DNA of 60,273 nucleotides, filler included, from Candidatus Woesearchaeota archaeon (GTDB taxonomy: Archaea > Nanobdellota > Nanobdellia > Woesearchaeales > JACPJR01), in assembly GCA_016187565.1 (NCBI GenBank). It is 3 parts of 3 records of this genome, joined end to end, with 100 filler letters (N's around TTAATTAATTAA, not from the genome) between each part and the next. Parts side by side here need not be neighbours in the genome. Positions count along the whole stretch, not along the records: positions 1 to 19,943 come from JACPJR010000013.1; 2 more parts are not named here. One strand, given 5' to 3'. The position numbers were made by a program. Positions 6,001-12,000 of the stretch are shown here, in pieces. How positions within the stretch are numbered: the first letter of the stretch is position 1; the number at the start of each line of letters is the position of its first letter.

Positions 6001-9000
6001 TTCCGTTATAATAAGTAAAAACCGTTGCCAGCCATGCATTAGGATTACCCTCAACAGGAACCTCCTCTAACTCCTCAGGTGAGTAATGGAAAGAAACCCG
6101 AGCAACACGTGTTGAGTTTTTAAGGGGAAGACTAGTAAACCAAAGATTATCTATAGACGTAAACGTGACTCCATTATAGGTAAGCGTATTTTCTGGAGAG
6201 GCAGGAGAAGAGAAAAGTTTGACTACCACCAGAATAATAATAGCAATCCCAAGAATAAGACCAATGGTAATAACAAGCCACTTACTGCTCTTATCGCTGC
6301 TTTTGTCAATACTCTTTTCTGAATCATGAAGTAGCTCATTTGTTTCATCATGAGCTTGAGATAATTCACTTCCATCAGCTGGAGAACTCATCTCTTTTGT
6401 TGCTCCAGTGTTTGCTGCTGCTTTCTTCAAAGAATCTTTCATAGTTTCATTCAGATTTTCACGCTATCTCTGGTGTTTGTATTTTTATGATATTTTGATG
6501 ATAATCAATCTCTCTTAAGACATGATACCAAGCAGACCATACAACAATCGCTCTTCAAGCTTGAGAAGGTCACTTGTTTTTGATGCTTGGAATAAGATAC
6601 AAGAGCCTTGCTGGGAAATAGCTGTTGCATTTCCCTCTGTTAAGTAAAGGACAGGAGCATCTGCGGTTGCATTCATACAGGTGACAATAGGTAATGTATA
6701 GCGATCATCATCTCGCGTAGTAGCATCAATGACAAAAATCCCCAACCATTGAGGAAACTTGGTGGAAAGATCAAAGCGAACTTGATCAACTTCTCCGATA
6801 AAAGATGATGTTGGGTCAAAGGTCAGGTAAACGACCTTAGCGTCTTTAAGACTAGGAACTACTGGAGCACTGACATTTATTGATTCTAACTCAGGAGGAT
6901 AGTACGCAAAATTTGCCCAGGTCGTGTCTATTTTCGTTGACCAGCCATAGCCACTTTTCTTAAACTGGTGACCATTATAATTATAGCGATCATCAGTTCC
7001 GCCACTGTATAAAAATCCAATAACGCTGGTAATCATAAGAAAGGCAATGACCGTACTTACAATAATTTTCAAACGGCGTTCACGTTTTTCTTGCTTGGTG
7101 TTTGACTTCATGGTATTATGAATGTTCTACTCCCAGAATTGGAGGAATAAAGTTCTATTTATATGTATTTATATTTAGAGGTATGCGAAAGTTTATTAAG
7201 ACCTACTATCATGTGTATTTCATATCATTATATATCTATTGTAACTATTGTAACAGCAATAAAGGAATCATGAAGAGTCATCAACCCTTGACCATCGGAG
7301 GACAAGCTATTATTGAAGGAGTGCTTATGCGATCTGCCCATTATATGGTCATTGCTGTTCGTGATCCTAAACACAAAAAGGTTCATCTTAAGACAGAAAA
7401 AATCAATTCACTAACAAATAAAGTCTCGTTCTTTGGCTTACCGTTTATTCGAGGTACTATCTCGTTGATAGAAACCATTGTTCTTGGAATAAAGGCTCTT
7501 AACTACTCTGCAAATAAGGCAATTGAAAAAGAAGAGGAAAAGTTAAGTGATACTACGCTCTTATTTATGGTTATTTTTTCATTGATTATGGGAATTCTAA
7601 TTTTTGCCTTCCTGCCCTATGTGATAACGAATGCTTTAGGATTACGTGAACAAACGCATCCAGTACTGTTCAACCTTATGGATGGATTCATTAAAGTAAT
7701 CATTCTTTTGGTGTATGTTATCCTTATTGCCAGAATGCAAGATGTTCACCGGCTTTTCCAGTACCATGGAGCAGAACATAAAGCAGTCCACTGTTTTGAG
7801 GCAAAGAAAAAGTTAACCGTAAAAAATGCACAGCAATTTTCGACCATTCATCCTCGTTGTGGAACAGCATTTCTTCTCATTGTCGTTAGCGTAGGTATTA
7901 TTATTTTTTCCTTTATTCCCCTTCTAGTGAAATGGGGATTTCCTCAAGTGAATACATGGCCATGGCTGCTCCGTTACCTTTTTCTGTTTAGCCTACGGAT
8001 TTTATTCCTTCCAATTATTGCAGGGGTTTCCTATGAGATCTTGCGCCTTGGTGGACGTTACCCGAAAAATGTGGGCGTTAAAATAATTCTCTTCCCTGGA
8101 TTACTCTTCCAAAACCTCACCACACGAGAACCAACAGACAAACAGGTAGAGGTTGCACTGATGTCATTACAGGCCGTTGTCAATAGGGAGACTAGAAGCA
8201 ATGGGAAGTAACAAAAAAAGCAGTTCTCATGATGTCGAGGAAATGTATGACGCACTGGTAGATGACGAAGAAAAACAACGTATCAGTAAAGCAATAGAAG
8301 AAACGCAAAGAGCAAAAGGAAATTCACAAAAATCTTCTCTCGGAAAAAAGATTACTTCCCTCATCATACTCATTATTTTGCTTATCGCTGCTATTGGACT
8401 CAGCATTGAATATTATAGTACACTGAAAGCAAGGCTAACACAAACCTACCAAAGAACAATAACCAGTTGCATCTTAAAAGTAGATCTCAACTGCCTTAAC
8501 CACTCCATAGAACAAAATGAAGTAACTATCCTCCTGGGAAATAGAATGCCAAAAACGATTTATCTCGAAGAAGCGTTTATAGGAAATTGTACCATACGTA
8601 TCGGTGAGTCTATCGCACCTACGGGAAGCAAAGAAATAAGAGCACCTGATTGCCAGCTTGATGACAGCAAAAAGTACAATCTTTCTCTATCCTACCGTTA
8701 CACGAGAACAGGAATTATTCATACCACCAAGGGAAACATTGGATTTCTCTTAGGAAAGAGTGAATAAAAAACGGTAATAACCGGATCTCAATCAGGAATC
8801 CAATTCTAAATAAGAAAAAGAGAAAAGAAAAAAAAAGAGGAATTTACTTTCTTTTTCTTCCACGAGCCATTTTTACACGAGCAACATCACCTTGTTTGTC
8901 AACATAATAAAGGTAACCATTTTCTCGCTTGACTCCAGATTTTGCAACAACTTCCTGTCTTGCTTTGCTTTTTGTTCGCCCTGCACGGGACATTTTAGCT

Positions 9001-12000
9001 CGTGCAACGTTACCTTGTTTATCGACAAAGTAAAGATAGCCTTCTTCTCTTTTAACCCCTACTTTAGCCACTTTTTCTGGCATAACTATCACCTCTCTAT
9101 CTCCAAGAACGTGGTGGTTTATAAATTTTTCGAAAAAAAATACTCGTTAACTACAAAAATGTTCTCTCGAAGAATAAAGTAAAGAAAAATACAATTTAAA
9201 TTAAAAAATTCTAAAATTATTATTATTTTTCAAAAAAAAGATAGAATAACAATTTTATTAAAAAATAAATAAATAAGTTCTAGAAAAGTTTAAATAATAT
9301 CTACATTTTCTTTGATTGTGAACATCCAAGAGATCCTGCAAAGATTGACGCGGCAATACCCTACCGGTATAATTACTCTCTCAAACCTTATGCAGGTGTG
9401 CAAAGTAAAACAAAGTACAGCATATCACCTTCTTCGACGATTACAACAGAGTGGCTCTGTTGTTAAAAAAGCAAAAGGAATCTATAAGATAAGCTCGAAG
9501 AAACGAGAGATCATTCTTTCCGAAGAAGTAAAGGCCATTGATAATCTGCTGAAGGCTGAGAAATTACAACCTTTCTGCTTCACTGCTATCGCAATTCTCC
9601 ATGTCTATCTCCCTTCGGTACCGAAGTTTAAGATATTTCATCTGTATGTTGAGAAGGGTCTTGGTAAGAAGATAGGTAAACTTATTGAAGAGCAATTGGG
9701 CATAACAACATTGATTGCACCAACAACAAAAGAAATTCTTTTGCTCAAAGAGAAGATGCATCTTACGATGATTATCCTCATCAGGGAATATACCTCCCTT
9801 TACTCTCGAAGAGGTGCTTATGAGGAAGCGGTGATTGATCTCCTCCATGAAAAAGAAAGAGGAACTCTTCCGTTCTACGCTCTTGACACGAAGTCTCTGC
9901 TAGAGAGGCTGCTACGGGAAGATCTTTTGAACATTTCCTATCTGATGAACTATGCAAAAACGAAAAACCTCGATACAATGATTAAATCTCTTATTCGACG
10001 AGATCTGTCGAAAAATAAGTAAAATGACACACAAAGACGTAAAATCTCAAAAAAAAGTGATACTGCAGAAAAACTGGCTGATCCATTTACTTCTTTTACT
10101 TATGATCATTCCAGCCATAACAGAGATTACGCTACTACCAAAGCAAGGAGCGTTTCATGAAAAACCCCTGTCTCAATCACTGATTGGAAAGGCTGCTGAA
10201 CTGGTCAAGGACATGACGAAAGATCTTGCCAATATTGTTGAACCACAAGATGATAATAATGATAACGATAATGATCCGAATAACAATAACGCGAACAGTG
10301 CTACTCAGGACAATGATGCCACCAACATCCAGGAAGTAGAGGAAGAGCCACCTTCACTAAGCGCTGTAGGTGATGTTCCCCGTGGACCATATCTCCAGCG
10401 TCCAAAAGCAAATGAAATGATGGTAATCTGGCAATCGCTTGCAGACGAGCCAGGAGAAGTTCGCTATGGGCTTACACCCAGTTATGGAAATGTAGTTGCA
10501 AGTCAACGGACCTATCTGCCTGAACAAAATGTCTACCTTCATGAAGCAACCTTACCAAATCTCCAACAAGATAAAACCTATTACTACAAAGTTATGTTGA
10601 ACGGAAATACCATTGTAGAAGCATCGTTTAGTTCTCAACGATCACCAGGAAGTAATTTTTCCTTTATTGTTTTTGGTGATTCGGGTGATGCGTTTGGTGA
10701 CACTGAACATCCACAATATTTACTTGCAAAAGTTATGGAAGAGGATCGTGTGCAGAGAGGCTATGATTTCATGCTCCACACGGGAGATATCGTTTACGAT
10801 TCTGGAAGGCAAGAAGATTACAACATGAATTACTTCGATCCCTATGCAAACATAAGCCTCTCTGTACCTATGTTCCCAAGCCTTGGTAATCACGATATTG
10901 TTACTGAAGATGGACAGCCCTACGTGGATAACTTTTACCTTCCGAATGAGCGACTCAGTGAGAGTGATCCTGCTTCAACTGAAAAATACTATGCCTTCGA
11001 ATACGGAGATGCATTGCTCATTGCGCTCGACACCAATGAGGATTACCATCCTGGATCTCCCCAGTTTTTATTCTTGCTCAGCAATTTAAATCGTACTGAC
11101 CAACAATGGAAGATTGTCTATTTTCACCATCCTGCGTATGCAAGTGATTCAGCGTACCATAGTACTGACCTCGACGTGCGAGAAACATTAACTCCTTTAT
11201 TCTCCTTTTTTGGTGTTGATCTTGTTTTCAATGGCCATCAACACTTCTACGAGAGGATGGAACCCATTAATGGTGTGCAGTACATTGTTACGGGTGGTGG
11301 AGGAAGGTCACTATACACTCCGGGAGAACAAAATCCCTATTCAGAGGTACTTCTCGAGAAATACCACTATATCGGTGTCTCAGGTACCCCTAGAACCTTA
11401 AACCTCACCACCATCGGATTGTTGGGAGTACGGCTTGATAATCTAACAATAACCACACAAGATTCTGTTGTTGTTTTTGATGAGGGAATGCTTAGTGAAC
11501 CACACAAGCACGAATTGTACCCCTTTTATCCTGTAGTGGTATACATTTCCTATCGTGATGCCTATGACCAGCAAATAAGCGATGGTCTCTGTACGATTGA
11601 AACTCCCTATGAAACTGTAAGCGCAACCTATAAGAGTCAGTTCTCTCTGGAAGGAATCTTCGGTTTTCCATTCAATGTTTCAGGGTACACCGGAACGATT
11701 ACAACGCAAGAAAATGAATTATTGACATACACGGTAACGTGCGAAAAATCCGGCCATGATCCAGTTACTCTAGATCGGACATTAAACTTCAGTAGTCAAT
11801 ACCCGGGTATTAAAGAAGAACCCTACGGAGAAAAAACAGGCTTTTACCACATTGAGCAACTGGAAAACAGATTATGGTTTATTAATCCTATGGGACAACG
11901 GGTTTTCCTCTCAGGAATGAGCTCCATTGTTCCTGGATACTTTGATGAGAGCTACTATGAGCAGCAATATCCCACTATTAAATCACTGGTAAGCAGCTCG

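What a model noticed while it worked through the whole genome (the two positions that open the first line are those of the whole stretch)
8844..9083. Small basic tandem-repeat protein: candidate chromatin protein of Woesearchaeales
A 79-aa protein of two ~38-aa repeats (pI 10.5) and a 44-aa single-repeat paralog (C11:35896-36030, pI 10.9) have no family. They are likely an abundant beta-sheet DNA-binding chromatin protein used beside histones and Alba. A NAP family shared by DPANN and several uncultured bacterial phyla would be new.
Evidence so far: Call 156: in 63 of 81 phylum genomes, 42-75% identity. Calls 161, 175: over 2300 homologs, also in Omnitrophota, Elusimicrobia, Myxococcota. Call 168: only unnamed clusters. 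PMC7613761 does not mention DPANN.
(Added by a program. Inside this text positions count along the whole contig: they may not be those of the stretch shown here. "Call 12" and the like, gene names such as g00115 and contig names such as C1 are that model's own, and its searches are not shown. The text may have been shortened before it was handed on; [...] marks where a part breaks off. The agent that wrote the report below was given it as the finding of a first reader that could run no searches.)

Follow-up and report, generated by a model that had tools for sequence, protein, structure and literature searches.

The report
Unnamed cross-domain basic chromatin-like protein
This tiny, strongly basic, very conserved protein has no named family, is found in most sampled Nanoarchaeota-phylum genomes and in all 41 sampled genomes of one bacterial phylum, and likely coats and compacts DNA, which nobody has tested.

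Summary
The gene is real: window 8844-9083 (-), 79 aa, pI 10.5, two repeats (24 of 35 residues identical), with its own TATA box, strong ribosome site and oligo-T end; a 44-aa one-repeat paralog lies on C11. Relatives occur in 242 of 301 phylum genomes, 41 of 41 Elusimicrobiota, 14 of 41 Omnitrophota, 9 of 26 Marinimicrobia, in marine group II/III archaea and 13 viral contigs; archaea-bacteria identity averages 64%. No curated family passes its cut-off, and the confident all-beta model matches no solved fold (best Z 2.5). It is not the CC1-like DUF5679 gene, which sits separately in the same genomes. Best reading (0.55): a non-specific nucleoid-associated protein. Support is indirect: size, charge, stand-alone genes (65 of 73), histone-H1-like tails (28 of 150). 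Binding and abundance are untested, fusions are mixed, HU is not displaced, and RNA or polyphosphate binding remain open. The scan reported this family twice before on other DNA (e1-978385, e1-1345275). Added here: universality in the Elusimicrobiota sample, one-repeat genes in sister orders, and four copies broken by tRNA-type (bulge-helix-bulge) introns.

The parts
8844..9083 (-). 79-aa basic two-repeat protein gene (ATG at 9083, stop included)
   Evidence: 2314 homologs; model pLDDT 86.9
8976..9080 (-). repeat 1, residues 2-36: short strand, loop, beta-hairpin (strands 16-20 and 26-30), basic Gly-rich tail
8853..8957 (-). repeat 2, residues 43-77, 24 of 35 identical to repeat 1
9089..9095 (-). 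Shine-Dalgarno site GAGGTGA, 5 bases before ATG
   Evidence: sequence; duplex energy -13.1 kcal/mol, matched or beaten by 0.7% of 1560 genes
9118..9132 (-). archaeal promoter-like BRE (CGAAAAA) plus TATA box (TTTATAAA)
   Evidence: read by eye against the recalled archaeal consensus; no tool scans archaeal promoters
8812..8837 (-). oligo-T tract after the stop, archaeal terminator-like
   Evidence: sequence; T-rich tract after 55 of 77 homologous genes against 93 of 540 neighbours

Best explanation
This is a small, basic, stand-alone protein of an unnamed family that likely acts as an abundant, sequence-non-specific nucleoid-associated (chromatin) protein, predicted to grip DNA with a two-fold beta-sheet unit and to condense it with lysine-rich tails. 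Shown: gene, repeat, charge, range, expression signals, tails. Predicted: each repeat gives a beta-hairpin, and the extra N-terminal strand forms only when two repeats are present. Inferred: one-repeat forms (the C11 paralog; most genomes of sister orders) pair as homodimers and the 79-aa form is a fused dimer; the conserved Tyr/Phe and the Arg/Lys of the R-x-K-M-x-R-G-G stretch contact the backbone and grooves; the Gly/Lys linker and C-terminal K/A tails neutralise and bridge DNA as H1-like tails do. It works beside histones and Alba in archaea and beside HU in bacteria, not instead of them.
For: Size and charge: median pI 10.55, 186 of 200 short members at 9.5 or more. Stand-alone gene in 65 of 73 loci against 200 of 450 neighbours; ribosome site at -9 kcal/mol or stronger in 50 of 79 against 34 of 574; here as strong as the histone gene's (-13.1 against -14.3). 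Small size and single-gene operon are two of the four NAP filters of PMC7613761 (section 6). H1-like K/R/A-rich stretches in 28 of 150 diverse representatives and 12 of 80 named loci, also on one-repeat forms. Mostly one match per genome, kept in 0.5-0.9 Mb genomes and in 41 of 41 Elusimicrobiota. Some DNA-related context: an HTH_17 gene upstream in 6 of 20 Elusimicrobiota loci (Pfam-confirmed for the 3 sent); fusion to a D5-like regulator region (P0238, E 5.8e-9) and to ASCH (P0231). No signal peptide or membrane segment in the stand-alone sequences, by eye.
Against: No binding or abundance data exist. Codon bias gives no support (31st percentile; the histone is at the 35th, so the test is uninformative). 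Ribosomal-protein genes have weak ribosome sites in the same test, so a strong site is no calibrated measure of abundance, and mis-called starts lower the background. Fusions are mixed: 10 of 50 long forms had a Pfam hit, among them DoxX, OmpA, nitroreductase, GAF and zinc ribbons, only ASCH being a nucleic-acid binder; the NucS-like and SRA-like partners I saw by eye got no database hit. HU/IHF is present in 80 of 80 bacterial genomes tested, with or without the family. No control was run for how often H1-like stretches occur on unrelated small basic proteins. 28 of 216 same-order genomes lack it even with a profile, so it is dispensable in some lineages.
Confidence: 0.55

Rival explanations
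1. A general RNA-binding protein (RNA chaperone, or a lineage-specific ribosome or translation factor) with the same basic beta surface.
For: Small, basic, aromatic-rich, 64% mean identity across domains, as translation proteins are; ASCH fusion; four copies carry tRNA-type introns, and the known archaeal mRNA intron of this type is in an RNA-modifying gene (reference titles in PMC5829648). The paralog lies tail-to-tail with the proteasome-exosome gene cluster (by eye).
Against: Never in a ribosomal operon in 93 loci clustered or 20 Elusimicrobiota loci; patchy in Omnitrophota, Marinimicrobia and Myxococcota; long variable K/A tails fit DNA-condensing proteins better (recalled).
Confidence: 0.22
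2. A polyanion scaffold that organises polyphosphate granules or other condensates rather than DNA itself.
For: H1-like tails; the H1-like protein AlgP spaces polyphosphate granules (PMC9239181, search listing only).
Against: Most members have no long tail (122 of 150), and the folded core is the conserved part; co-occurrence with polyphosphate genes was not tested.
Confidence: 0.08
3. A sequence-specific regulator or co-factor of a small DNA-binding protein.
For: HTH_17 gene upstream in 6 of 20 Elusimicrobiota loci; an unnamed 157-aa gene that looks winged-helix-like by eye lies upstream in 15 of the 93 loci (no PDB hit).
Against: No neighbour is shared across lineages (top family 15 of 93); expression signals are far stronger than those of neighbouring genes.
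Confidence: 0.08
4. A surface or ligand-binding beta-hairpin module akin to choline-binding or propeller repeats, used as a tether on membrane proteins.
For: Weak hits to PspA (E 0.008, cut-off 850 bits) and LRP6 propellers (E 0.007-0.05); fusions to DoxX, OmpA and hydrophobic proteins.
Against: Scores far below cut-offs; period 41, not about 20 residues; stand-alone forms lack export signals and dominate the family.
Confidence: 0.07

Closest known systems
CC1 of Thermoproteus tenax and DUF5679 (PF18930) proteins
   Same: Small, basic, beta-rich, abundant DNA binder (PMC4200833 passage); CC1 rows of 48-76 aa exist for Woesearchaeota in PMC7613761 Table S1.
   Different: DUF5679 proteins (46-62 aa, two CxxC pairs) are a separate gene in 14 of 20 carriers and 6 of 20 non-carriers and show no likeness (hhalign 0.6%, hmmsearch E>=0.17). 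That DUF5679 is the CC1 family is recalled and backed only by the matching lengths.
Sul7d and Cren7
   Same: Tiny basic all-beta chromatin proteins, single-gene operons.
   Different: No Pfam hit; not among the structural matches (inconclusive); tandem repeat and bacterial range differ.
Candidate NAP WP_019177984.1 / AGI86273.1 of Methanomassiliicoccales (PMC7613761)
   Same: 74 and 70 aa, basic, lysine-rich, single gene, predicted novel fold, also in bacteria; 1.34% of the proteome, only nominally nucleoid-enriched.
   Different: Its sequence could not be obtained, so identity is untested. Its reported bacterial range (Sphingomonadales, Rhodobacterales, Alteromonadales, Flavobacteriales) barely overlaps the names seen here (one Cryomorphaceae MAG label).
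H1-like tailed bacterial proteins (HupB, Hc1, AlgP; recalled except the AlgP listing)
   Same: Low-complexity K/A/R tails on about a fifth of members.
   Different: The folded core is unrelated to HU; most members have only a short basic end.

Membership tests
NAP by the filters of PMC7613761 | shorter than 290 aa | tested here: met
   79 and 44 aa
NAP by the filters of PMC7613761 | single-gene operon | tested here: met
   own promoter-like and terminator-like signals; 65 of 73 loci; exceptions behind KamA in Elusimicrobiota
NAP by the filters of PMC7613761 | known or predicted DNA-binding domain | tested here: inconclusive
   no family or fold match; charge and tails only
NAP by the filters of PMC7613761 | high-abundance outlier, nucleoid-enriched | not testable with these tools
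   needs proteomics; strong ribosome site is indirect
CC1 / DUF5679 | sequence homology | tested here: not met
   against 7 DUF5679 proteins; CC1 itself was not available
CC1 / DUF5679 | small, basic, beta-rich | tested here: met
Sul7d / Cren7 | Pfam family match | tested here: not met
Sul7d / Cren7 | SH3-like barrel fold | tested here: inconclusive
   not listed; a missing row does not exclude it
WP_019177984.1 family | sequence homology | not testable with these tools
   no sequence in the supplement passages seen
Pfam PF27482 | score over the model's cut-off | not testable with these tools
   model absent from the library; on 8 of 120 near-identical homologs only and 0 of 240 rows, which suggests a marginal hit; 0 papers
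Ribosomal proteins | place in ribosomal-protein operons | tested here: not met
Choline-binding repeat | about 20-residue tandem repeats on an exported protein | tested here: not met
   period 41; 15 bits against cut-off 850

The most novel reading that the evidence does not exclude
A major, unrecognised chromatin protein with a new beta fold: a core gene of Elusimicrobiota and most Nanoarchaeota, shared at about 64% identity across the bacterial-archaeal divide, working as a homodimer or fused dimer, tuned by H1-like tails, and in some lineages switched on only after the tRNA-splicing endonuclease removes an intron from its mRNA.
Probability: 0.4. Interest if true: 0.85.

Novelty: new variant of a known kind. 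Interest (0 to 1): 0.62.

Why it matters
Inventories of prokaryotic chromatin rest on a handful of families found in cultured species. A family this conserved, present in about 80% of one archaeal phylum and all sampled members of a bacterial phylum, would change what is thought to package DNA in DPANN archaea and several little-studied bacteria, and may add a new DNA-binding fold. It is easy to test: a 40-80 residue protein, and Elusimicrobiota has cultured species (recalled). If it binds RNA instead, it is still an unknown core gene of two lineages.

Tried and rejected
No curated family over cut-off: Pfam, NCBIfam, PHROGs (79; phrog_37589, unknown function, E 2.9e-5). PDB by sequence: only LRP6/LRP2 propellers. 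Foldseek PDB and viral: none at E<=0.001. VIA-align over 48,161 chains: 23 at Z>=2, none at Z>=5; this does not prove a new fold. ESM Atlas: unnamed clusters only, 0.91-0.95, recognition below threshold. No match in 50,697 annotated phage records. HU replacement rejected (80 of 80 have HU/IHF); a weak hint remains (two HU/IHF matches in 1 of 14 Omnitrophota carriers against 13 of 27 non-carriers; kin not independent). Obligate histone partner: PF00808 found in 0 of 61 bacterial genomes. Codon adaptation uninformative. No RNA holder listed. Sigma-70 scan is not suited to this promoter. Likeness to the AbrB hairpin was a recalled idea with no support. Tree: 77 columns, mostly unresolved; no direction of transfer claimed. 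Paper searches for the family found nothing. For the introns: searches gave only general papers; PMC8784108 held no mRNA-intron passage and PMC4090602 none on archaeal mRNA (126).
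Full report
Observation. Window 8844-9083 (-) encodes 79 aa, pI 10.50, with 23 Lys+Arg. 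Residues 2-36 and 43-77 match at 24 of 35. Upstream lie a BRE/TATA-like site (9118-9132) and GAGGTGA (9089-9095); an oligo-T tract follows the stop. The gene faces away from its upstream neighbour and converges on its downstream one, so it is transcribed alone. The only other copy in the genome is the 44-aa one-repeat gene C11:35896-36030. The genome also has two histone genes and one Alba gene; DUF5679 was not found in it.

Range. 2314 proteins at 90% clustering; 1310 clusters at 50%. In the phylum: 236 of 301 genomes with the single query (including unpublished G242 and G243), plus 6 of the remaining 65 with a profile. Counted by hand from those rows: 188 of 216 same-order genomes and 53 of 84 in other orders; family f15 is 0 of 12. 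The 30 weak-hit genomes of other orders that I re-examined all carry stand-alone one-repeat genes, mostly about 37-67 aa. Named records add Myxococcota, Marinimicrobia, Omnitrophota, Elusimicrobiota, Nitrospirota and Auribacterota, marine group II/III archaea and other Thermoplasmatota and 13 viral contigs. Phylum samples centred on named records: Elusimicrobiota 41 of 41, one match each; Omnitrophota 14 of 41 (66); Marinimicrobia 9 of 26 (100); Myxococcota 2 of 26 (101); each tally includes the centre genome, chosen as a carrier. Mean identity among 80 loci picked as best matches to the archaeal profile (so biased upward) is 70% within archaea, 67% within bacteria and 64% between; 18 of 24 bacterial rows form one supported clade, the rest fall unresolved among archaea. 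The bacterial copies are therefore not just mis-binned archaeal contigs, though single rows such as L084 could be.

Family and fold. Nothing passes a curated cut-off; sources call members 'hypothetical', with stray automatic labels. PF27482.1 on 8 of 120 homologs is unresolved. AlphaFold2 on 85 sequences gives an all-beta model, pLDDT 86.9, strands 3-6, 16-20, 26-30, 44-47, 57-61, 67-71. The one-repeat paralog alone keeps only the hairpin (pLDDT 69.3, pTM 0.41). No structural relative appeared. Over 229 repeats the most conserved positions are the Gly, Leu and Tyr opening the hairpin, its Asp-Lys-x-Gly turn, and downstream Arg, Met and Arg.

Function. The case for a nucleoid protein is circumstantial but consistent. 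Members are basic (186 of 200 at pI 9.5 or more), stand alone (65 of 73 against 200 of 450), have strong ribosome sites (50 of 79 against 34 of 574) and T-rich ends (55 of 77 against 93 of 540) (L067 skipped). H1-like stretches occur on 28 of 150 representatives, without a control set. Neighbours vary: the commonest family is in 15 of 93 loci, HerA/Mre11 genes in 9-11; in Elusimicrobiota an HTH_17 gene is upstream in 6 of 20 and a lysine 2,3-aminomutase-like gene directly upstream in 4 of 20 confirmed. Against: fusions point several ways, codon bias is silent, HU is not displaced, and no experiment exists. I put non-specific DNA coating at 0.55 and RNA binding at 0.22.

Comparison with what is known. 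PMC7613761 (passages, sections 6-8, and supplement passages) counts CC1 by jackhmmer and lists Woesearchaeota CC1 rows of 48-76 aa; I saw 22 of its 49 Woesearchaeota rows. DUF5679 genes of that size are separate from this family and unrelated in sequence (7 of 12 loci yielded a protein), so the family is probably not hidden in that figure; equating DUF5679 with CC1 is recalled. The paper's candidate WP_019177984.1 is similar in size, charge and 'novel fold' status and could not be compared by sequence; its taxa differ. CC1's properties come from a passage of PMC4200833. Six searches found no paper on the family; subscription papers and preprint supplements were not searchable. The scan's notes e1-978385 and e1-1345275 describe the same family with the same reading; they are not independent evidence.

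Side finding. In 4 of the 6 genomes recovered only by the profile, the one-repeat gene is cut by inserts of 27, 28, 33 and 32 bases at three positions. Removal restores the conserved frame, and the best junction fits bulge-helix-bulge geometry: central helix 4 of 4 pairs in L147 and L152, 2 of 4 in L150 and L151; folding z -1.1 to -2.8 against mononucleotide shuffles. All four genomes encode a splicing endonuclease and have unbroken histone and uL14 matches. Such motifs are known in archaeal pre-mRNA, with relaxed forms (PMC5829648 passages). Splicing is predicted, not shown; if real, the gene is transcribed and still needed there, and absence counts are overestimates.

Verdict. A real, unnamed, cross-domain family with no recognised fold; most likely a new kind of small nucleoid-associated protein, function untested. 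New variant of a known kind; interest 0.62.

Noticed in passing
L147 (G277:C2), L150 (G090:C7), L151 (G183:C1), L152 (G062:C13), near the locus centres: One-repeat genes interrupted by 27-33-base bulge-helix-bulge-type introns at three positions; histone, uL14 and endonuclease matches in the same genomes are unbroken.
   Followed up: partly
L132, L133, L144, L145 (Elusimicrobiota): A lysine 2,3-aminomutase-like radical SAM gene lies 2-88 bases upstream on the same strand, often behind an HTH_17 gene; a link to lysine modification of this lysine-rich protein is speculation.
   Followed up: partly
L022:26-499 and 14 other loci; G000 C17:30072-30530: Conserved unnamed 157-aa protein, winged-helix-like by eye, upstream of the family gene in 15 loci; no Pfam or PDB hit.
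   Followed up: partly
P0149, P0210, P0252, P0262: A recurring 170-176-aa form joins the two repeats to a second unnamed conserved domain; no curated family.
   Followed up: no
P0150, P0181, P0198, P0256: The module is fused to hydrophobic, membrane-like proteins including DoxX; it could tether DNA to the membrane.
   Followed up: no
window 10024-16995 (+): 2323-aa protein with phosphoesterase-like, glycoside-hydrolase-like and fibronectin-like stretches by eye.
   Followed up: no
window 7102-8211 (+): DUF1385 gene; its homologs converge on the family gene in 5 loci and lie nearby in 2 more.
   Followed up: partly
G000 C11:36143-37492 (-): 449-aa protein with several HTH-like repeats by eye directly upstream of the paralog.
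   Followed up: no
L022-L072, 22 records: Records titled 'uncultured Methanosarcinales archaeon' group with Woesearchaeota in sequence and gene order, so the labels look wrong.
   Followed up: partly
window 19944-20043, 43350-43449: The window is a join of contigs C10, C12 and C14; many contig ends share a repeat of about 140 bases.
   Followed up: no
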